64,000 bases of DNA from Dictyostelium discoideum. Lineage: Eukaryota. This document shows, in pieces, positions 22,633-34,103 of the stretch (the first letter of the stretch is position 1; each line of letters starts with the position of its first letter). The translations under genes were made by a program, and so were the position numbers. The notes under the pieces were generated by a model. The model was given only the letters and a program-made list of their open reading frames with translations, ran no database searches and was not told the DNA's origin. Where the stretch lies: contig CM000154.2 in NCBI GenBank assembly GCA_000004695.1, forward strand, positions 672,001 through 736,000. Reading direction: 5' to 3'.

Positions 22633-25600
22633 AAAGTTCCAACACAACCAGAATGGTTTTATTCATGTAAAACTTGTTGTAATGAATCAAACTATTATTG
22701 TAGAAATTGTTTTTTTGATGGTGAACATATTGAAAAAGGACATTCAATTTCAATGACAGAAAATTCTAGTGGTAGAGTTTGTGATTGTGGTGGTGAAGGT
22801 ATTAAACCTGAAGCATATTGTAGTAAACATATTAAATCCAATGAAAAGGTAAAGCAAGAGCTACTAAGTAAGATTCCAAGTTTCGTTAAAAAGGATATTC
22901 ACATTTTCTTTAGATACTCACTTCAATATCTTCAATATTTGTCAACTACATCAGCAACTCAACCAACAATCTCTGAAGAGAACAAAGAGGAGACCATATT
23001 AATTGGAAGTTGGTTCATTATGATAGCATCAATTTCATCGTCATTGGTTCATATGGCTGCAGAAGAAACTTCAGGAAGAGTTTTAGATTCATTAGAGAAT
23101 GGTGAATTTAAATTGAATGAACACAAACCATTACCTTACAAAATTGAAACTCATTCAATGGATGGTAACAGTGATATTATTCAACCATTTGCAAGTAAAA
23201 ATTCAAGTTTATTATCATTTGTATTTGGTAATAGTACCGCATTGCATTCTCTATTGCCATTGATCATCATTTTATATGATAATCATAAGAATTTCAAATT
23301 GGTGGTAATTGAAGAGTTTCTTAAAAACTATTCAAACTTATTTAAAAATAGAGATCAAGTTTCCACCGATATCTCTTTGAAAATGTCAAGTCTCTATTTG
23401 GGTAATAGTTTAATTTCAAAGTTTTGTACCGACTATTCAAAATATAATTACTTGGAATTGGTATTACGTGCTCATAAGAATTACTATGTACCATTGTTAT
23501 TACCATTCTATCAAACTTCAAATCCAGAGGATATCAAAAAGGATGTTATGTTACAAACTGATCTTGAAAATTTCCCAAGATTAATGAAATCCGCGAATAT
23601 TGTAAAATACTTTGTAACCGATGAAGAGAAAATGGATTTATTCTTTGAATTGGCAGGTTCTTATCATAAATTTACAACCTTGGAATATATTGACCCATCA
23701 ATTTCAACTTGTAAATTCCTTTTAAACACTGAACATTACCTTGTCAATACCATTAGAAATATTTTGACAACTATTGAATCTGAAAAAGATTTTATTTTTG
23801 ATTCTGAAACTTTGAAAAAGAAGTTTTTAGATTCAACAATTAAAAGTATCGCCGAGAAATTGGTAAAGAATATTAAAGAATTAAAAAAAAGAGAAATGAC
23901 AAATCGTTGTGGTATGATGTTAGAACATAAGGACTTTTTCGTTAATTTCACCTATGCTGAAATTCCTGTACATTTCCCATTGTTCCGTATTTTATCAGCT
24001 TTCTTATTACTTAGTGGAATGGATCCAATGGAATTGTTGACAACAAAATATAATCTAACTCAAGCTGATATCACTGAAATGGTTACAACTATTCTTTTGT
24101 TTAGATTCTGTTATATCACCTATGATATTCAATCCTCCACTGAAAATATCACCGATATCTCCATGTTGTACGATTTACATATACTTCAAGTTGGTCTCTG
24201 TTTATTGGGTACAAAGAAATTCTTATTGACTTTCTTTAATGCTTTATCATCAATCAGTCATGGTAACAATTCAAAGGTATTCGTTGATAATCTTTCCTTG
24301 TTAATCTCTGTATTCCAAACTAGAGCAAATCTTGCACCAACTAAAACTCAAGCATTCTATCATTTGTACCAAGGTGCCATGTCTGGTTTATTCTTTAAAG
24401 TTCATTTCCGTTCATTCGATATGATTTTACCAGGTTTCACTGAAAATGATATTTGTGAAAAGCATATCGAAGAGTTTACAACACCAGGTGAAACAGAAAA
24501 GCTTTTACTCGATCAAACCAATTGGAAATATTATGATAAATATTATCCATACTTTTCTTTGAACTATCGTGATTTAATCTCTTCAAATTGTTCAAAGAAG
24601 TATAAAGCCTATCAAGAATCATTGGGTTTACCAGGCAACTTCAATCCATTACCACCACAACTTGAAGAATTACCATCACAATTATCTGGTGTTTATTCAG
24701 CATTAAATGATCAATACCTTTTCGAAATGATTTTCAATGTTTTGGTTGCACCATTGCACTCAACATTTGTTGATTATGAAAATTCCTTTGAATTACAATC
24801 TGTTATCAAACGTTTATTCTCTTCAGTTCCAGTTCCACCAATCAATGAATTTTTTTATATTTTAACATTGACTTTCAAATCTTTTAAAGAACAATTCTTA
24901 CCAAAATTACAAGATTCAGAGAAATTGGAATTACAACAATCACTTCAAGAATACTTTAAATTGGATTCTGAAAATAAATTCACTTTCAAATTCCAATCAA
25001 CAATTAAAGAGAATGCAATCACTCATTTACTTCAAGTTTATCATGTTAACTTGGGTGAATCAAATGGTAAAGTTATGTTATCATTATATGATTTACTTTT
25101 AAAATATAATGAAATCATTAAAAAAGATAATTTACTTTATTCTGAATATACTTCAAATATCAATTATGTTTTCAATATTCTTTTTGAATTTGATTCTGAA
25201 ATATTTAATCAATTTAAACAACAATCAAATGTAGTTGCTGCTGTTGTTGATGTTGCTGCTTCTGCTGCTGCTGTTGATAACTCTACTACAGAAAATACCA
25301 CCACAACCACTTCATCATTAAATGTTGAAGATTCATTAAAAGATTTAAATATTAAAGATGATTCAACAACAACAACAACAACTACTGTTGATGCTACTGC
25401 CACCACCACCACTAATGAAGAAACAACAAAGAATTGTGTAATTTGTAATGGTAATGAAGAAGTTGGTAGATTATTTTCAATGTCATATATTGATTTATCA
25501 TCAGTTACATTCCAAAATGCAACTAGAACTGTTTATCAATATTCAAAGGATAAAGAGAATGGTTATGATCCACGTTATCAAACTTTTCTTGAAAACTTTT

Positions 25601-27162
25601 ACTTTATTGATATTAAACCAGGTACATCACAATACATTCCATATAAAGATGATCCAGCACCATTATTTGCATGTTATCTTTTCCAAAGGTGTCCATCCAC
25701 TTATATCTCTAGTTGTGGTCATAATGTTCACAAGAAATGTTTAGAAAAATATAATAAAACCAATCCACCACCAGTCAATACACTTTTCAACAATACCTAT
25801 AAATGTCCAAAATCAGGTTGCTCAAGAGAATGTGACATTCTCATTCCATTAGGTAAACCAGATACTTCATTAGATTTTAAATCTTCAGCCAATGAATTAT
25901 TCTCAACCATGTGTTATTTCGATTTCTTAGCTTTGATGGAAAAAGAAAACAAATACAGTATCGATAAGTATTTATGGAAATTTGTTTTACAAAATATTGA
26001 AACCTTGGAATTGAAATCAAGAAAAACCAAACTCTACAATGAATCTGAAAATGATCCAGAATACCATTTAATGAGTGAACAAGAATTCCAAAATGAAATG
26101 TTAACAACTTCACGTCTTTTCAAGGTAGTTATGACTGCAGATGTTGAACCAGAACCACTCTTACCAATTTACGACCAATCAACCTTCTTTATGGATCCAT
26201 TCACAAGTAGTAGTTATTCAGTTTACTTGGAACCAAAAGAACAACCAATTGAATTGTTATTCAAAGGTTTAGCATTATACCTTTTCAATGTACTCCTTAA
26301 TCATTGCTTTAGAAATAAAGTTGTTCCAAGTGAAAGTGCTGATAATCCAACCATCGTTTCAAAATTAATCATTGAAGAATTTAATAAACTCTTCTTTGAT
26401 GATTCAAATAAATTAAAACAATTGGATCAAAAGGTTTATTTAGAATTTAAAAATCAAATCCATCCATACCTTAGAAAACTTTTGATTTTCAATAATCTCT
26501 ACAAACCAGAATCATTGAAATCTTCAACCACTTTTGATATTTCTTTGGATGTACTTTCAGACTTTAATCAATGTATGAAGTTATTGTTTAATTTCGATTC
26601 AATTGAACTTTTATTCTCACAATTGGTTACAAAGGATTATTTAGAGTTAACTTTGAACTTCTTTATGAAAAAGAGAAAACTCAGTTCAAATATTTCAAGT
26701 TTCCCACAATTATTATGTACCTATCCACCACCACAACAATATGACTTCCTTCCAGATTTCTTTGAAATGTTGCCAAAATATGCCGATTCTATCAAAGAGA
26801 ATACTGATGTTGGTAATTGTTCAGTTTGTAAAAAGATTAACAAAATGGTTTGTTTAGTTTGTGGTGTTGGTATTTGCCCAAGCACAACTTGTAAACTTGG
26901 TCCAATCGTCCATTTATATTCTTGTCAATCCGCTCCAATAGGTTACTATCAACATGTTCCTTCTCCAAGTCTTTTTGTTTACATAACAAAACATAGTATT
27001 TTCACAAGATCATTCTCAACCTCCATTTACTTAGATAAAAATGGTAAAAAACCAACAGATCTCTCTGATTGCAATTTAACTCTTTCAAAGAAAGAATTGA
27101 AAAAACTCTTTATTAATTGGATGAATCATTCAAACTCTAATTTTTTAATTAAAAATAAATAA
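22189..27162 (+). CDS. UBR-box E3 ubiquitin ligase (N-recognin family), paralog 1
   Basis: Exons are 22189..22226 (MSFFSNLFSKPE, GTAAGC donor), 22366..22544 (…KAPTFEEFKK…SKETSKCQH) and 22637..27162. UBR-box zinc finger: EWFYSCKTCCNESNYYCRNCFFDGEHIEKGHSISMTENSSGRVCDCGGEGIKPEAYCSKH. UBR RING-like region: FACYLFQRCPSTYISSCGHNVHKKCLEKY…CPKSGCSRECDILIPLG. C-terminal Cys-rich UBR autoinhibitory domain: CSVCKKINKMVCLVCGVGICP…. Confidence 0.8.
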
Positions 27163-27273: not shown

Positions 27274-28330
27274 TTATTGAGTTAAATAAACAAAGAATAA
27301 AATAGCTAAAATTGAACTACCCCAATTAGCAACTATAAAACCAAAAATTCTACAACGATGATTATAATCCCAACCAACATGGGGGTGGAATTTGAACACC
27401 TGATAGAATAAAATGATTGGTAAAGCTGCAATGTTTACACCTAATGCTTGAGCAAATGATACAATGTAAACGCTAAACATTATATGCATTAACCAATAAT
27501 AAAAGTTTGCACTAGTGGTCGGTTAATTCCTGATGTCCAATAAATTGTTATAAAGAAAAGTGTACATGATACTATAACGTATGGAATTTCAAAAACAATC
27601 ATTTACTTACTGTATCACGTTTAAAGTATTCTTTTTGAATGAAAAACATTAGTGATACTAAATAAATTAATACCAAGTATCAATGCTTCCCAACTCATTA
27701 AAACTCTTTGTTGTTGATCAGATGAACTATCCTTTAAGTCATAAAAAGTAAAACCAATTACAAGACCAGAGATTGTACTTTGAGCAAAACTACCTATTGT
27801 ATAATAAACGTCACGAAAGTAAATTATATTTAAACGTTTATAAACTTTAATGAATTGAGTTAAATAACCATTTGCAAATTCTCTTGCTTTACCTTTATTT
27901 TCAACGACGTTGCCATCTTTACCATTTGAAATATATTTTTCTAATGTTTCTTTTGATTTTAAATGATGATCCAATTCTTGTAATACATCTTGATATTATT
28001 TTGATTGTTTCCAAACTGTTTGTCAATCAAGATTTGTTGTACCACTAATACCTGCACCAGTTGCTTCTAAAATATATTAAGCAGGATTTTCATCTTCAGT
28101 ACATGGACAAACACCATTACGTTGGAAATAAGAGGTTAAATTTTTAGATTTTTCACCTATATCACCAAAATATACTTTTTTACCACCCCTTGCTAATATT
28201 TCAAAACATAGAAAAAATAAAAATTTAGATATGATCAATTTGTAGTTCACCACTTTGTTAAAATGAGTGATGGTATCTTCACTTGGAATAATCTTAAATA
28301 TACTGTACAAGGGAGGGGCCAAAAAATTTT
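27274..28330 (-). pseudogene. ABCG-family (PDR/WBC type) transporter fragment, disrupted by frameshifts or stops and a local inversion
   Basis: Three minus-strand ORFs in different frames carry ABCG motifs: …[40 protein letters not shown] (NBD end), …EKYISNG…YLTQFIKVYKRLNIIYFRDVYYTIGSFAQSTISGLVIGFTFYDLKDSSSDQQQRVLMSWEALILGI (TMD) and …FGFIVANWGSSILAILFFVYL. In-frame stops occur around 27975-27990 and 27520-27620. The plus strand at 28266-28310 encodes [12 protein letters not shown], an NBD start motif, in the opposite orientation. Confidence 0.6.
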
Positions 28331-29010
28331 AGTTACAGATGATGATGATGATTTACCAATTGTGTCATTTGAAAAGTTTGGTGTTGATGTTTGTGATGTT
28401 AATGAGTTTGGTGTTGATGTGGATGATGATGATAATGGTGGTGAATTTTTATTAGAGTTTACAATTTGAATTGGTTGGAATGATGATTATAATGACGAGC
28501 TTGAAGTATTACTAATAGATCCTAATGGTCCTAATCCACAAACTGAAATTGCATTACTTATTGTCGAGTTTAATGGTGATGATGAAGTTGGTTATGCTCC
28601 TGGTGTTCCTCCTGAATTGGAGTTTTTCTTCCACCCAATAAACGATGGCATATTACTTTATTTTTGTATAAACTCTTTTTTCTAATTAGTAAAAAAAATT
28701 AAAAACCAAGGAAAAAAAATTAAAAATAATAAAACTATTTTAAAACATATCACATTACGATAGTGATTTTAAATCAGTAAAAGAAAAAAAAAAAAAAAAT
28801 TAAACATTTAAATAATAAATAAACTAAAATTTAATCTTTTAAATAATAATAATAAATAAAATTAAAAATAATAAATTAATAAGAATAAAACTATTTTAAA
28901 TAATCACTTTACCCTTGTGATTTTAAAATATTAGAAAAAAATAAAAAAATAAAAAAAAAATATAATTATTTGAAATATTTTTTTTTTTTATTGAAATAAA
29001 TATTATTATA

Positions 29011-29138
29011 AAATGAAATTTAAAATGTTTCTTTTTTAAAATTCAAGATTCTAACATGGCAAACAGTTAGAAATAATTAAATGTTTGCCATGTTAGAATC
29101 TTAAATTTTAAAAAAGAAACATTATAAATTTCATTTTA
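29011..29138. repeat. Near-perfect 56-bp inverted repeat (hairpin) with a 16-nt spacer
   Basis: The left arm aaaatgaaatttaaaatgtttcttttttaaaattcaagattctaacatggcaaaca and the right arm tgtttgccatgttagaatcttaaattttaaaaaagaaacattataaatttcatttt are reverse complements with 2 mismatches. Confidence 0.9.
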
Positions 29139-29444
29139 TAATAATAGTTATGAGATGATTGCTAAATGAAATACAAACTATTGTATTGGAAAGTTGTTGA
29201 CAACTAATGTTTAACCTGCAATTGGAAATGGTCTTGTTTTTTTGATTCGTAATCAGGGAGTGTTGATATATAAGATTTTATCATTTTGAATTTGTTCCAT
29301 GGTGAATGATTTTTGTATTGTGTCTTTGTCCGTATACACCATGAAACTAAAGAGATCGTGCGCTATTTCTTTTTTTGAATGTCGGAATATTCTTTAGATT
29401 TGCTTCCCAATTTTCATGAAACATAACATAAAACTTTCCAATAG

Positions 29445-30123
29445 TTAACGAACCTGAATTACCCTTGTTGAAATATGGTGGTGATCTCCCAGTTGAACAG
29501 CTTTGCTAAAGTTGGTGGTGGATATGTTGGTTGTAGAAGTAGTTGATGTATTGGTTGTAGAAGCAGTTGATATGTTGCGTGTTGTGGAAGAGGTTGGTGT
29601 GTTGATTGTAAAAGTAGTGGATTTGTTGGTTGTAGTGGTAGAGGTTGAGTGCTTTAAAAACTCCTCTTTCAACTTTGAATAATTTTTATGGGCAGCATAT
29701 TCATATAATTTATCATAACAAGGAAATCTAAGTTTAATACTATCCCAAGCAGTTTCAAAAAGATCAAAAGATTTACGACTAATACCCTTGATGAATTGAT
29801 TTGCATACTCTTCTTTTTGTAAAATGAAAGTTTTTACCAATGATTCTAAATCATCAGATTCATCAAATTTAAATATATAATCTCTATTATTATTTTTTAA
29901 AGTTTGGCATATTCTACTTGATGCTGTGGATTTACTACCTTGATATGTACAATCATCACCTTTATTGACAGAAAATCCGAAATCAATTAAAAGTGGATGT
30001 TTATTTAAAACTAAAATATTTGACGGTCTAATATCTCTATGAATTACATTCTTTTTGTGGATTGATTGAATTATATCTACCAACTAAACAATTTTTAGAA
30101 AAGTAAGTAAAATAAAAGTATTA

Positions 30124-30204
<81 letters not shown>

Positions 30205-31319
30205 TAATATTAAATAAAGTTACCTCTGAATAAAATGATGCAGGTGCACCACTGCTATCAATTGGGAGTCCTCTTGGTGAGATTTGAATAAAAAAACCTT
30301 TTTCACAACATTTAATAATTGATGGAATACCAGTTATACCCTTTAATCTATTCAACATTGAAATTTCATTGTCATATTCCAATTTTTGATGAAATACCTT
30401 GAATACTTTAGAATTATCAACAATAAATACTTGGGATGTTGCGCCAGAGAAAAATTCAACTCCTGATGTTTTTGATATTTTTAAACTGGATGGAATTGGA
30501 GTGATGTTATATTCTACATAAGACATAAGATCATAAAGATGTTGGATACCTGTTGTTAAAGGGTAGTCTTTTGTTATTTCAAACTTTTTACTACCATCTG
30601 AAAGTTTATATCTGAAAAATTTGATTAATTCTTTGTTTATCAAGAAACCAAACATTGATCCATCGTTGAAATGACGGTTTGAATTTTCAACTACGAATTC
30701 CATGTAACTAATAACTTGACCTTTATATTGTGAAGTATCTAAACTTTGATTGATTTTAATGTCTCCTGTAATATAAACCCAGTATGGTTCATATGGGAAA
30801 TTGATATCTCTTATTGCTAAATCACAAAACATTTTAGGTTTAGAGCTGCACATCATTTTAGAGGTACCATCATATATTTGGATTTTTTTTCCTTTGTTTA
30901 AAATTCTAAATATTCTAAATAACTCTTTTTGTAATGCTTTTTCATCTGTGTATTGACCTGTACTAATTTCATTTACTAAATTACCTAATTCAACCTTAAC
31001 CTCTGTTGTTGGAATTTTCCATTGTTTGAAATTGCAATTCTCTTTAATAATTCCCGAATCATTCTTTTTTGAAAAATTTTGAGAATATGTTGTTTTGCTT
31101 AAAAAAAAAACACAGTTGTTAGATATATGTAAAAAACATTATGTAAAACAATAAAAGCATTGATATTTTCTTACCTCTGTTTGAGTTCTTGATTCTACAA
31201 GGGCTTCCACCATTTTCTTTTTCCTCTAATTTTTTATTATTTTCCTCTAGTTTTTTATCTTTTTCCTCGTTATCTCTTTTCAAATTTTCAATTATTTGAA
31301 GTAAATCTTTTTCAGCCAT
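29445..31319 (-). CDS. Divergent protein kinase (eukaryotic protein kinase catalytic core with atypical N-lobe)
   Basis: Proposed exons are 31319..31175 (MAEKDLLQIIENLKRDNEEKDKKLEE…, coiled-coil, GTAAGA donor), 31041..30224 and 30083..29445. The catalytic loop reads LVDIIQSIHKKNVIHRDIRPSNILVLNKHPLLIDFGFS. The G-loop/VAIK equivalents are FFSGATSQVFIVDNSKVFKVF. Intron 2 (30084..30223, GTAACT donor) contains (AAT)n. The exon 1/2 acceptor is uncertain. Confidence 0.6.
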
Positions 31320-31768
31320 TATTTTCGTTATTATTATTTAATAAAAAATTATAAAAAATGAAAAAAAAAAAAAAAAATTTTAAAAATTATAAAAAATAAA
31401 AAATAAAAAAATTTTTTAAAAATTATGAAAAAAAAGGCGCGAAAAAAATTTTCGTTACTAATCCATTTATGTATCAGATCAAATAAATTGTTTTTGTAAT
31501 AATTGATATTGTTGTGCTTGTTGTAACTGTTGTGCTTGTAATTGTTGATATCATTGGGCTGTTAACGCATTTTGTGGTGGTGGTTGTTGCTCAAGTCAAC
31601 CTAAAATGAACACCTAAAATGTATTAAATACTCAAAAAATAACATCCAAAGTGTGTGGTGAATTATTATGTGTTTTTTTAAAATTTTAATTATTTATTTA
31701 TTTCATTTTTTTTTTTTTTTTTTAAGTTATTATTTATTATTATTTTATTAAGTTATTATTAAGTTATT

Positions 31769-32800
31769 TTAATAAAATTCATCATCATCACTATTATTAT
31801 TACTTATAATTATATAAGTATTTGGATTAAATAATGGTCGAATAAAACTACCAACATTTAATAAATCAACATTAAAATTTTCAATATAACCATTTTGATT
31901 TTGAATTACATTATAAAAGAATAAAACAATAGAGAAAAATAAATTATCAAAACCAGGTGAAATATCCCAAATTACATTATTTTGTGAATAAATTCCTTTT
32001 GGAATTAAAATATCACAATGTAATGGTCTTTTATATGCAATACTAATCATTATTGAATATTGAGATTAATAAATATAAAATGAATGAAAAAAGTTAGTAT
32101 ATAGTATGTATATGGTGTGTATAGGGTATTATGAAACTTACATTTACTATCTTCATGTTTAATATATTTTGAAGAAAATGGTATCTGGATTTGGAGCAGT
32201 AACATCCCTATATAATTTATAATCCATGTAAGCAACGAATAAACAAAATAATAATTGTTCATCAGTTGGTAATTCATTTGCAATCCAACCTTGACCACCT
32301 TAGGAAAACATGTTTATCACGAGATAATTCAATAATTCCAACAGTGTACCATTCATCATATTATCATATTGTTGTTTTGTAAATGAAATAAATATTAAGA
32401 AGATTAAAAAAAATGAAATTTAAAACGCATATAATATGACCCAAATCCAATATAATCTGAATATTTGGTATTCTCCCAATTACTTGATATCATTGGAAAA
32501 TTTTCACTTTTTAATGTATTTCTATTTGAACTAACAAATGGTGCTGTTTTTGTGGTTTATTTATAATTTGATTTCTATTATTAATAATAGATTGTCTTGG
32601 TGTAATAGTAGTAGTTGGTATTGTTCCTGATGTCGATGTTGATGATGTTGTTGGTATTCTATTTGCAGATCTTGATAATGCACTTGTTGTTAATCTTTCA
32701 ATTTTATTATTATTATAATTATTATCTTTATAATCTTTATTATTACATAAAACATCTTGAATTATAATAATTTTAAAATTTAATAGTTTCATTTACATCA
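31769..32800 (-). CDS. Putative multi-pass membrane protein gene, multi-exon or decayed; identity unresolved
   Basis: Minus-strand coding-like segments lie in three different frames: KSENFPMISSNWENTKYSDYIGFGSYYM (about 32385-32470), GGQGWIANELPTDEQLLFCLFVAYMDYKLYRDVTAPNPDTIFFKIY (about 32160-32300), and …ISIAYKRPLHCDILIPKGIYSQNNVIWDISPGFDNLFFSIVLFFYNVIQNQNGYIENFNVDLLNVGSF…DDDEFY* (31769-32050). No consistent GT-AG path was established. Confidence 0.25.
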
Positions 32801-34103
32801 TCATCATCATCATCACACATATATACATTCTAGTTTTCCATTATTTTTTTTTTTTAATTAATAAATAAAAATAAAATCATTGGAAAGATTTTTTTTTTTT
32901 TTTTTTAAACAAAATATTTTTTAATTATTAAAAAATGAAAAAAAAAAAATTTAAGTATGTGATATAGTTAACAATACTTTTTTATTTTTTATTTTTCATT
33001 TTTCACATAGAAAAAAAAAAAAATTTCCACTTTTTTTTTTTTTTTTTTAAAAATAATATCACAAGATATTATATGAAAGAGAAAAAAAAAATTTTGTCAT
33101 AAAATTGGGAAAAAAAAAAAATGAGAAATAAAAATAAAAAAAAATTAATGAAAAACAAAAAGATATTCATTAATAAATGTGTAATTGTTATTTTTTTTTT
33201 TTTTTTTTATTTTTTTTTTTTAAAATAATATCACAAGATATTATATTAAAAGTATATTTTATTTTTTTTTTTTTTATTTTTTTTTTTTTTTATATGAGAA
33301 TATTTACTACATTAGGAATGAATTAATTGAACTACTTATTGAAACTTTCTTTAATTATAATTTTATTTTGGCATAATATTATTTTAAAAACATTTACTAA
33401 TTGTTATGTTAATTTAAATCTGTATCATAGTCATTTTTTTCATTTTTTTTTCCTAATTTTAATTTTTTTCTATCTTTTTTAATTATTGATTTTGTGAATG
33501 ATATTATACCTAAAGATATAGTTTTTGTTGTATCATATAAAACCCAAAATAACTTTTCCAATATACATAATATGAATAAAAATGCCAATAAAAATGGTAT
33601 ATATGAAAATATACATAGGATGTAGTATAAAAAGTAAACTGTGTAATAGATGATTATGTAAATATTTTTAAAAGTAAAAAAATGAGATATTACAATAAAT
33701 AATGAAATTATTATTATAATTAAAAAAAGTTTGTTGTAGTTGTATTGAGTTTATTTTATCCATTTTTAATAAACCAAAATTTATTTTTTGAAAGTTTAGA
33801 ATGATTTAATTATGAAATAATTTTTTTTTTTTTTTTCCAATAGCTTTTTATAATTATTTTTGAGTAAATTATAAATAAAAAAAAAAAAAAAAGAAAATTG
33901 AAAAAAAAAAAAAGTTTTCTTTTTTAGGAAAGTTAAATATTTTTATTTTTTTTATTTTTTTTTTTTATTAATTATTTTTATGGTAATCAAAATATCGTGA
34001 TTAATAATAAAAAAATAAATATAATATTTTAAATTCTTTTTTTTTTTTTTTAATTTTTTTTTTTTTGATTTTCATCAAATTTGATAACGGGAAGGAAAAA
34101 TAA

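What the first reader, a model, noticed from the sequence alone, without database searches (positions are those of the whole stretch)
29011..29440. 56-bp near-perfect inverted repeat (hairpin) followed by a 300-bp GC-richer unique block at the 3' end of a kinase gene
The arms 29011-29066 and 29083-29138 are reverse complements with only 2 mismatches around a 16-nt spacer. Long perfect palindromes are rare in this genome outside transposon termini. The adjacent 29140-29440 segment (…gtgcgctatttc…gtcggaatattc…) is compositionally unlike the surrounding AT-rich DNA and has no long ORF. It could be a MITE or DNA-transposon terminus (Tdd-4, DDT or thug-like), a structured ncRNA, or a cruciform-forming element. 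It ends 5 bp downstream of the kinase stop codon (29445, minus strand).
Basis: seen in the sequence. Interest (0 to 1): 0.55.

Follow-up and report, generated by a model that had tools for sequence, protein, structure and literature searches.

The report
Lone palindrome beside decayed kinase tail
Just downstream of a Dictyostelium discoideum kinase gene lies a real 156-bp near-perfect palindrome, apparently single-copy and found only in some strains. The "GC-richer block" next to it is the frameshifted remnant of the kinase's own C-terminal domain, so the locus looks like ordinary gene decay and rearrangement rather than a transposon or a known RNA gene.

Summary
The inverted repeat is real and larger than reported: arms 28996-29069 and 29078-29151 (74 nt, 4 mismatches, 8-nt spacer). 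RNA folding gives -77 to -81 kcal/mol (z about -19 to -23). It is the only such repeat in 226 kb of Dictyostelium DNA examined.

The 300-bp block is not anonymous DNA. On the minus strand it is the decayed C-terminal "tail" domain found in paralogous kinases. It is out of frame with the kinase ORF and carries a 1-bp frameshift that is polymorphic between strains. Its GC (30%) equals that of exons.

The whole segment is lineage-specific. Sister taxa have an intact ABCG transporter gene here. AX4 and ACTFIT carry an ABCG stump plus the kinase and the palindrome. Strains ACTFIW and ACTFIR lack nearly all of it.

No second copy, target-site duplication, transposase, Rfam family or published D. discoideum miRNA matches the hairpin.

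Best reading: a local inverted duplication in the kinase's 3' flank, with no demonstrated function. If the kinase transcript runs to the first AATAAA (28992-28987), it would carry a 74-bp dsRNA stem. A young small-RNA hairpin therefore remains possible but untested. Low interest.

The parts
28996..29069 (.). Left arm of the palindrome (74 nt).
   Evidence: I1, 95% complementary; mismatch positions; structures.
29070..29077 (.). 8-nt unpaired centre (AGAAATAA). The innermost TTA/TAA triplets of the arms close it with a 3-bp stem.
   Evidence: Dot-bracket structures.
29078..29151 (.). Right arm of the palindrome (74 nt). It is contiguous with the kinase-side sequence.
29253..29505 (-). Relic of the C-terminal 'tail' domain of the kinase family, with its stop codon at 29255-29253. 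It is out of frame with the kinase ORF. In the window it is split by a 1-bp frameshift near 29358, which is absent in the Logan strains.
   Evidence: Paralog tails. Profile search: best of 3120 six-frame peptides of the window. Frameshift-corrected peptide scores 16.9 bits, with 0 of 2000 shuffles reaching it. Logan variant gives a continuous 83-aa ORF, 19.5 bits, E 1e-4.
29152..29252 (-). 100 nt between the relic's stop codon and the palindrome. GC is coding-like (29.7%) and its origin is unresolved. It would be the first part of the kinase 3' UTR.
   Evidence: GC; no similarity found elsewhere.
29445..30083 (-). Last exon of the protein kinase gene (model P0001 = UPI00004E2E1D, 520 aa). Stop codon at 29447-29445.
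28987..28992 (-). First AATAAA on the minus strand downstream of the kinase stop, beginning 4 nt past the base of the hairpin. Taken as the putative poly(A) signal.
   Evidence: Its use as a poly(A) signal is inferred, not shown.
28674..28990 (+). Two tandem A-rich units of about 155 bp (about 73% identical by BLAST). Each carries an ATCAC-N9-GTGATTTTAAA mini-palindrome (28749-28773 and 28903-28927). They lie immediately left of the hairpin.
   Evidence: (D3).
27274..28198 (-). 3' stump of an ABCG/PDR transporter gene that is intact in sister taxa.
28252..28328 (+). Short ABCG fragment in inverted orientation relative to the stump.
   Evidence: L003 17180-17126 and L014 17357-17287, 89-91% identity, opposite strand.

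Best explanation
The locus is the decaying 3' end of a lineage-specific protein kinase gene in Dictyostelium discoideum.

The block. The 'GC-richer block' (29152-29444, extending to 29505) is what remains of the roughly 65-residue C-terminal tail domain that paralogous kinases still encode. It is now out of frame with the kinase ORF. In this strain it carries one further 1-bp frameshift.

The palindrome. About 100 nt beyond the relic's stop codon, a stretch of about 75 nt of the 3' flank has been duplicated in inverted orientation around an 8-nt centre, giving a 156-bp palindrome. The likeliest origin is a fold-back or template-switch repair event. The surrounding few kilobases have been reshaped by similar events: truncation of an ABCG gene, an inverted ABCG fragment, a tandem 155-bp duplication, and large strain-specific deletions.

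Shown:
- the structure of the palindrome;
- no further copy in the DNA available;
- its presence in some strains and absence from others and from sister taxa;
- the homology of the block to the paralog tails.

Inferred:
- the mechanism by which the palindrome arose;
- that it has no selected function;
- that kinase transcripts run through it to the AATAAA at 28992-28987, and so carry a 74-bp dsRNA stem in their 3' UTR.
For: Palindrome geometry and significance.

Independent assemblies carry it unchanged.

Block is a tail-domain relic:
- Paralogs P0003, P0004, P0005 and P0008 end in a shared tail.
- A profile of those tails finds the block's frame piece 29505-29350 as the best of 3120 six-frame peptides of the window. 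The adjoining piece 29393-29256 ranks sixth, and the two are collinear on profile positions 3-33 and 30-63.
- The frameshift-corrected peptide scores 16.9 bits; 0 of 2000 shuffles reach it, the best scoring 9.3.
- In the Logan strains a 1-bp deletion at 29358 makes the tail one 83-aa ORF, scoring 19.5 bits, E 1e-4.
- Block GC is 30.4%, equal to exon GC.

Unstable, lineage-specific context:
- D. cf. discoideum ACTFIY and D. dimigraforme have an intact ABCG gene of about 1460 aa between the UBR gene and the 127-aa gene, and no kinase.
- The window and ACTFIT have an ABCG stump, an inverted ABCG piece and the kinase segment.
- ACTFIW and ACTFIR lack window 27277 to about 31061-31092 and 31382 to about 33844-33847.

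Paralogous kinases have no comparable hairpin downstream of their stops.

No Rfam family reaches its threshold.

No match to published D. discoideum miRNA lists, with positive controls working.
Against: - Copy number could be tested only in about 226 kb of a 34-Mb genome. A low-copy repeat family is therefore not excluded.
- The four arm mismatches (5%) mean the duplication is not brand new. For scale, AX4 versus ACTFIT flanks differ by about 0.3% and AX4 versus ACTFIW flanks by about 3-9%. Its survival, and its complete invariance across the strains that carry it (although these differ only about 0.3% overall), could reflect either constraint or arm-to-arm gene conversion.
- Two of the mismatches become G:U pairs in the minus-strand (kinase-sense) RNA, which folds slightly better (-81.2 versus -76.6 kcal/mol). 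This is weakly compatible with selection on that RNA, but with only two sites it is also what chance allows.
- No donor sequence for the arms was found, so the fold-back origin is an inference from geometry and context.
- No expression data could be consulted.
Confidence: 0.6

Rival explanations
1. Young hairpin-RNA or proto-miRNA locus. The palindrome is transcribed, either inside the kinase 3' UTR on the minus strand or from its own start on the plus strand. It is then diced by DrnB or DrnA into 21-nt RNAs. These would act in cis by destabilising the kinase mRNA, or in trans.
For: - Its size and stability (156 nt; -0.49 to -0.52 kcal/mol/nt at 37 C) fall within the range tabulated for D. discoideum miRNA hairpins (-0.43 to -0.70; PMC11014262 supplement).
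- Rfam's only hits are sub-threshold matches to long or palindromic miRNA precursor families: mir-3119 at 45 bits against a gathering score of 80, and MIR9563 at 45 against 90.
- The first minus-strand AATAAA lies just beyond the hairpin, so kinase transcripts probably include it.
- A T12 run followed by G sits 3-18 nt upstream on the plus strand. This resembles the pri-miRNA start motif of PMC6161686.
Against: - No 10-11-mer from the stem occurs in the miRNA tables or hairpin listings of PMC6161686, PMC4894637 or PMC11014262, and the positive controls were found.
- T>=12 runs occur 77 times per strand in 64 kb, so the start motif is uninformative.
- The Rfam hits reflect generic perfect hairpins and are far below threshold.
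- The locus is absent from two D. discoideum strains and from all sister taxa examined, so it cannot be essential.
- No expression data are available.
Confidence: 0.17
2. Palindromic MITE, or a solo terminus of a DNA transposon (Tdd-4, DDT or thug-like), inserted next to the kinase.
For: - Long, near-identical inverted repeats are the hallmark of such elements.
- thug-S copies are a known multi-copy source of miRNAs in D. discoideum (PMC4894637 and PMC6161686).
- Only a small fraction of the genome could be searched.
Against: - No second copy in 226 kb of Dictyostelium DNA or in JGI metagenome contigs.
- No flanking direct repeat.
- No transposase-like ORF nearby.
- Arms separated by only 8 nt leave no internal sequence.
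- The presence/absence breakpoints between strains are kilobases away from the palindrome ends.
- From my own knowledge, not tested here: none of the described D. discoideum transposon families is a 156-bp palindromic element.
Confidence: 0.07
3. A selected structural element: a conserved structured ncRNA, a 3'-end or terminator hairpin separating the convergent genes, or a protein-bound cruciform.
For: - It lies between two convergently oriented gene models: 28263-28685 on the plus strand (ACTFIT annotation) and the kinase on the minus strand.
- It sits directly upstream of the minus-strand AATAAA.
- It is invariant among the carriers.
Against: - No orthologous copy exists in any other species or in two other strains.
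- Paralogous kinases lack any such hairpin.
- No Rfam family reaches its threshold.
- The carriers differ by only about 0.3% overall, so invariance says nothing about constraint.
Confidence: 0.04
4. Assembly or sequencing artefact, for example a chimeric fold-back read.
For: Palindromes can be created by library artefacts. One Logan contig breaks inside the hairpin (L008).
Against: The identical sequence appears in the window, in NCBI assembly GCA_054883475.1 and in three independently assembled runs that span the whole hairpin.
Confidence: 0.01

Closest known systems
Young amoebozoan miRNA hairpins (dfi-mir-1190, ppo-mir-1226; PMC11014262)
   Same: An unusually long, almost perfectly paired, species-specific hairpin in AT-rich dictyostelid DNA. 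Free energy per nucleotide is in the same range.
   Different: No small RNAs are known from this locus, and it is absent from all published D. discoideum miRNA tables checked. Its stem is even more perfect (4 mismatches in 74 bp) and its loop is only 8 nt.
Plant MIR genes and animal hpRNA/endo-siRNA loci born by inverted duplication (own knowledge: Allen et al. 2004 model; Drosophila hpRNA loci)
   Same: An inverted duplication of genic or flanking sequence gives a long perfect foldback that Dicer enzymes can process. It lies within or next to a protein-coding gene.
   Different: The arms show no similarity to any other gene available here, so no founder or target gene is evident. Processing is untested.
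MITEs, and thug-S-derived miRNA loci of D. discoideum
   Same: Terminal inverted repeats that form a hairpin when transcribed.
   Different: This element appears single-copy, has no target-site duplication, no internal sequence, and no insertion polymorphism at its ends.
Fold-back (template-switch) inverted duplications at rearrangement sites (own knowledge from yeast and human structural-variant studies)
   Same: A palindrome with a short asymmetric spacer closed by a 3-bp microhomology. It lies in a region with other inversions, tandem duplications and deletions.
   Different: It is only 156 bp long and interstitial. No breakpoint junction or donor sequence could be demonstrated.
Unitary decay of a gene's C-terminal domain (for the 300-bp block)
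   Same: Exon-like GC, collinear homology to the paralogs' tail domain, frame disruptions, and an indel polymorphism between strains.
   Different: The kinase domain upstream is still an intact ORF, so only the tail is dead. In some strains the tail is still one uninterrupted but out-of-frame ORF.

Membership tests
microRNA / hairpin-RNA precursor (Dictyostelium DrnB pathway) | Stable stem-loop able to hold a roughly 21-nt duplex | tested here: met
   74-bp stem; -76.6 to -81.2 kcal/mol; z -19 to -23.
microRNA / hairpin-RNA precursor (Dictyostelium DrnB pathway) | Discrete 5p and 3p small RNAs mapped to the arms, reduced in drnB-/rbdB- strains | not testable with these tools
   No read data are accessible. 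Indirectly, stem 10-11-mers are absent from the miRNA tables of PMC6161686, PMC4894637 and PMC11014262, with positive controls found.
microRNA / hairpin-RNA precursor (Dictyostelium DrnB pathway) | Transcription across the hairpin (a pri-miRNA or a host mRNA) | not testable with these tools
   Sequence inference only. The first minus-strand AATAAA lies 4 nt beyond the hairpin. The T12+G motif on the plus strand is too common to count.
Rfam RNA families | Score at or above the family's gathering threshold | tested here: not met
   Best hits are mir-3119 at 45.4 bits (threshold 80) and MIR9563 at 44.6 (threshold 90).
MITE / DNA-transposon terminus | Multiple dispersed copies | tested here: inconclusive
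   No other copy in the 64-kb window, in about 160 kb of other Dictyostelium loci, or in JGI metagenome contigs. The full genome could not be searched.
MITE / DNA-transposon terminus | Target-site duplication abutting the terminal inverted repeats | tested here: not met
   The flanks ...TTATTGAA| and |GAGATGAT share no terminal direct repeat. A TA dinucleotide cannot be judged in DNA this AT-rich.
MITE / DNA-transposon terminus | Presence/absence polymorphism with breakpoints at the element's ends, or an associated transposase | tested here: not met
   Strain deletions end at 27277, about 31061-31093, 31382 and about 33845, not at 28996 or 29151. Nearby ORFs have no Pfam domain.
Conserved structured ncRNA | Orthologues with compensatory base changes | tested here: not met
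   The locus is absent from D. cf. discoideum, D. dimigraforme, D. firmibasis and two D. discoideum strains. The carriers are identical across the hairpin, so no covariation is available.
C-terminal tail domain of this Dictyostelium kinase family (for the block) | Collinear sequence homology to the paralogs' tails, located directly after the T/S/N-rich linker | tested here: met
   Top-ranked of 3120 six-frame peptides. Corrected peptide 16.9 bits with 0 of 2000 shuffles reaching it. Logan variant 19.5 bits, E 1e-4, covering profile positions 3-63.
C-terminal tail domain of this Dictyostelium kinase family (for the block) | Reading frame continuous with the kinase ORF (a functional domain) | tested here: not met
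   The kinase frame stops at 29447-29445 and the tail is in another frame. There is an extra frameshift near 29358 in the window and in ACTFIT. The ACTFIT model P0018 splices into a non-homologous frame.

The most novel reading that the evidence does not exclude
The palindrome is a very young, strain-polymorphic hairpin-RNA gene embedded in the 3' UTR of a kinase mRNA. Dicer-like cleavage of the 74-bp stem would both destabilise the host transcript and release 21-nt RNAs. That would capture the birth of a small-RNA locus by local inverted duplication in an amoebozoan, with natural strains that carry or lack it available for comparison.
Probability: 0.12. Interest if true: 0.5.

Novelty: new member of a known kind. 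Interest (0 to 1): 0.2.

Why it matters
As it stands, it matters little. It is a tidy case of gene decay and local rearrangement: an ABCG gene truncated, a kinase losing its tail domain, and an inverted duplication. All of this lies in a region that varies between D. discoideum strains.

Two practical points follow.
- The block should be annotated as a pseudo-exon, not spliced into the gene as in one public model.
- A 74-bp perfect foldback probably sits in the kinase's 3' UTR. If small-RNA data showed that it is diced, it would be a rare, datable example of small-RNA gene birth in Amoebozoa, with natural carrier and non-carrier strains to compare.

Tried and rejected
- Rfam at permissive E-values gave only sub-threshold generic miRNA-hairpin hits.
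- BLASTN and short-word searches of the hairpin, its core, the block and the neighbouring exon-like piece against the window and 14 fetched loci found nothing beyond A/T low complexity.
- tblastx of 28310-29460 gave only low-complexity noise.
- A plain tblastn of my hand-made tail peptide against the paralog loci was not significant. A profile of the paralog tails was needed to show the homology.
- An exact-match scan of the JGI metagenome contigs for the 21-mer core returned 0 hits.
- Exact protein look-ups of raw ORFs failed because the real genes are spliced. P0001 itself is on no contig on record.
- ddi-mir-1183 and ddi-mir-1177 were suspected of lying nearby because of similar chromosome coordinates or gene numbers. 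Neither is in the window.
- ddis_Cluster_1861 of PMC11014262 is a perfect 162-nt hairpin that failed manual inspection. I considered it as a possible match and rejected it, because its -1.05 kcal/mol/nt is twice as stable as this AT-rich stem even at 22 C. No coordinates are given for it, so this is not absolute.
- Glöckner et al. 2001 on the Dictyostelium repeat families (PMC311061) is not held. A search for other descriptions of Tdd-4, DDT and thug found nothing usable.
- Pfam found no domain in the small neighbouring ORFs or in the tail.
- Paralog 3' flanks were searched for comparable hairpins and none was found.

Full report
ORGANISM AND GENE CONTEXT

The window is Dictyostelium discoideum.
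- The spliced kinase ORF is 100% identical to a 520-aa protein (P0001, UPI00004E2E1D) that ends ...STRVIQVR. Its stop codon is at 29447-29445 on the minus strand.
- The large ORF at 22753-27162 is the N-recognin (zf-UBR) E3 ligase annotated in strain AX4 (XP_637052.1).
- The window is 99.7% identical over 13 kb to NCBI assembly GCA_054883475.1 (strain prefix ACTFIT, locus L001), and 100% identical over 28600-30300.

THE OBSERVATION

- The arms are 28996-29069 and 29078-29151: 74 nt, 95% complementary, 8 nt apart.
- The four mismatched pairs are 29000/29147, 29023/29124, 29044/29103 and 29066/29081.
- As RNA, the 181-nt region folds at -80.3 kcal/mol on the plus strand (z -19.2) and -81.8 on the minus strand (z -23.3).
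- The 156-nt core gives -76.6 and -81.2 kcal/mol, that is -0.49 and -0.52 per nt.
- As DNA it gives -61.6 kcal/mol, z -18.2.

It is also rare.
- Every other inverted repeat among the 25 longest in the window (arms >=40 nt) is A/T-tract noise at 70-82% complementarity.
- In 226,490 bp of non-redundant Dictyostelium DNA (the window plus eight loci), my scan found no other repeat with arms >=30 nt, about >=90% match, loop <=100 and >=5 G/C per arm.

It is not an artefact. The identical sequence is in L001 and in Logan assemblies of independent runs SRR26869248, SRR26869257, SRR26869258 and SRR26869267. Three of those contigs span the whole hairpin; the SRR26869248 contig (L008) breaks inside it.

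THE 300-BP BLOCK

Its GC content (30.4%) is indeed far above the intergenic DNA to its left (10%). It equals the neighbouring exons at 28-31%.

The explanation came from the kinase's paralogs.
- P0003, P0004, P0005 and P0008 continue past the T/S/N-rich linker into a shared tail of about 65 residues...G-x-[YF]Y...A[DN]L...P..K[RK]...F......GILYM....
- The minus strand of the block reads SLTIGKFYVMFHENWEANLKNIPTFKK. After a frame change it reads EIAHDLFSFMVYTDKDTIQKSFTMEQIQNDKILYINTP*.
- A profile built from the four paralog tails was searched against all 3120 six-frame peptides of the window. It ranks the piece 29505-29350 first and the adjoining piece 29393-29256 sixth. The two are collinear on profile positions 3-33 and 30-63.
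- The frame-corrected peptide scores 16.9 bits. None of 2000 shuffles exceeds 9.3.
- The four Logan contigs differ from the window by a 1-bp deletion at 29358 plus G>T at 29360. This makes the tail a single 83-aa ORF scoring 19.5 bits, E 1e-4 for that search space.
- Even in those strains the tail is in a different frame from the kinase ORF.

The block is therefore the dead C-terminal domain of this kinase, with an indel that is polymorphic between strains. The ACTFIT gene model P0018 splices part of it in, but in a non-homologous frame (...VIQ|FHGVYGQRHNTK...). That is probably a prediction artefact.

The 100 nt between the relic's stop (29255-29253) and the hairpin also have coding-like GC (29.7%). 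I could not explain this.

SYNTENY AND POPULATION CONTEXT

- In D. cf. discoideum ACTFIY (L014) and D. dimigraforme (L003), the UBR gene is followed by an intact ABCG/PDR transporter of about 1460 aa. In ACTFIY the ABCG gene is followed by the 127-aa gene and tubulin. In D. dimigraforme it is followed by the counterpart of the 127-aa gene, called there as 124 aa. Neither locus has a kinase.
- D. firmibasis has different neighbours.
- In the window and in ACTFIT, only the last roughly 0.9 kb of ABCG survives (27274-28198). It is followed by a short ABCG piece in inverted orientation (28252-28328). About 4.9 kb (28199-33075), containing the palindrome and the kinase, replaces the rest.
- D. discoideum strains ACTFIW (L002) and ACTFIR (L013) lack window 27277 to about 31061-31092 and 31382 to about 33844-33847. 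They keep about 300 bp resembling the kinase's first exon region at 81-84% identity. The segment therefore predates the split of these strains and was later largely deleted in some.
- Immediately left of the hairpin are two tandem A-rich units of about 155 bp, each with an ATCAC-N9-GTGATTTTAAA mini-palindrome.

The palindrome thus sits in a few kilobases that have repeatedly undergone deletion, inversion and duplication.

TESTS OF THE SPECIFIC READINGS

Transposon or MITE:
- No second copy of the arms or core in the window, in the fetched loci or in JGI metagenome contigs.
- No direct repeat abutting the ends.
- No Pfam domain in the nearby small ORFs.
- The strain breakpoints are kilobases from the palindrome ends.
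- The full genome and the repeat library could not be searched, so copy number remains formally open.

Known RNA families:
- Nothing reaches an Rfam threshold. The only hits are generic long-hairpin miRNA families at about half their gathering scores.

Known D. discoideum miRNAs:
- 10-11-mers tiling the stem are absent from the supplementary tables and hairpin listings of Liao et al. 2018 (PMC6161686), Meier et al. 2016 (PMC4894637) and Edelbroek et al. 2024 (PMC11014262). Control sequences and identifiers were found in the Liao and Edelbroek supplements.
- Two miRNAs with suggestive coordinates, mir-1183 and mir-1177, are not in the window.

Family-wide feature:
- Five paralogous kinase genes have no comparable hairpin downstream of their stops.

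HOW IT MOST LIKELY AROSE AND WHAT IT WOULD DO

The right arm is contiguous with the kinase-side sequence. The spacer is 8 nt and is closed by a 3-bp TTA/TAA stem. The neighbourhood shows other inverted and tandem duplications. I therefore infer a fold-back or template-switch inverted duplication of about 75 nt of the kinase's 3' flank.

The arms differ at 4 of 74 positions, so the event is not very recent, or the arms are homogenised by conversion.

On the minus strand there is no AATAAA between the kinase stop and 28992-28987, which begins 4 nt beyond the hairpin. Kinase transcripts would therefore probably include the complete stem in a 3' UTR of about 450 nt. Such a 74-bp near-perfect dsRNA is a plausible substrate for the Dicer-like nucleases. 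Edelbroek et al. note that unusually long, nearly perfect hairpins mark newly evolved amoebozoan miRNAs.

A T12+G motif on the plus strand resembles the published pri-miRNA start motif. However, T>=12 runs occur 77 times per strand in this window, so it carries no weight.

None of the transcription or processing steps is shown.

VERDICT

- The transposon interpretation is unsupported.
- The block is explained as a pseudo-exon.
- The palindrome is best read as an apparently single-copy, lineage-specific inverted duplication without demonstrated function (confidence about 0.6).
- A minority possibility (about 0.15) is that it is a nascent small-RNA hairpin.
- It belongs to a known kind of feature. 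Interest is low unless small-RNA data show processing.

Noticed in passing
window 27277-33847 (compared with L002, L013, L003, L014): There is a large structural polymorphism here. Two D. discoideum strains (ACTFIW, ACTFIR) lack 27277 to about 31061-31092 and 31382 to about 33844-33847. D. cf. discoideum ACTFIY and D. dimigraforme carry an intact ABCG transporter gene of about 1460 aa at this position instead of the kinase segment.
   Followed up: partly
window 27274-28198 (-) and 28252-28328 (+): An ABCG/PDR transporter pseudogene stump is followed by a short fragment of the same gene in inverted orientation. The ACTFIT annotation builds a 114-aa gene from the inverted fragment plus an exon-like piece (window about 28263-28685, plus strand). 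That gene is probably not real.
   Followed up: partly
window 29358-29360 (L005-L008): A 1-bp indel plus an adjacent substitution is polymorphic between strains. The Logan-run allele restores a continuous 83-aa tail ORF. The window and ACTFIT allele is frameshifted.
   Followed up: yes
window 28674-28990: Two tandem A-rich units of about 155 bp (about 73% identical by BLAST) each carry a mini-palindrome ATCAC-N9-GTGATTTTAAA (28749-28773 and 28903-28927). The arms are conserved and the loops differ. The motif was found nowhere else in the window or in the other loci.
   Followed up: partly
window 29152-29252: The 100 nt between the relic's stop codon and the hairpin have exon-like GC (29.7%). 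They show no recognisable ORF or homology, and their origin is unexplained.
   Followed up: partly
window 30100-30215 (-): The kinase's last intron is almost entirely a (TAT)n microsatellite of about 100 nt. Raw ORF calling reads it as a poly-tyrosine run. Similar tracts in other loci produce spurious BLAST matches.
   Followed up: no
window 29517-29659: A 24-27-nt periodic direct repeat (5 copies) encodes the T/S/N-rich linker (STTSTTN...) between the kinase domain and the dead tail. Paralogs have similar linkers.
   Followed up: no
window 31062-31381 versus L002 13235-13532 and L013 15179-15526: The strains that lost the kinase keep about 300 bp resembling its first exon and promoter region. 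Identity is only 81-84%, much lower than the 90-97% of the flanking DNA.
   Followed up: no
window 31097-31175 (-): The AX4 model (P0001) and the ACTFIT model (P0018) join the kinase's first exon to different acceptor sites (...NSNR|EVKVEL versus ...NSNR|ENCNFKQWKIPTTEVKVEL). The simple GT..AG intron I tried is out of frame, so the 5' structure of the gene is uncertain.
   Followed up: no
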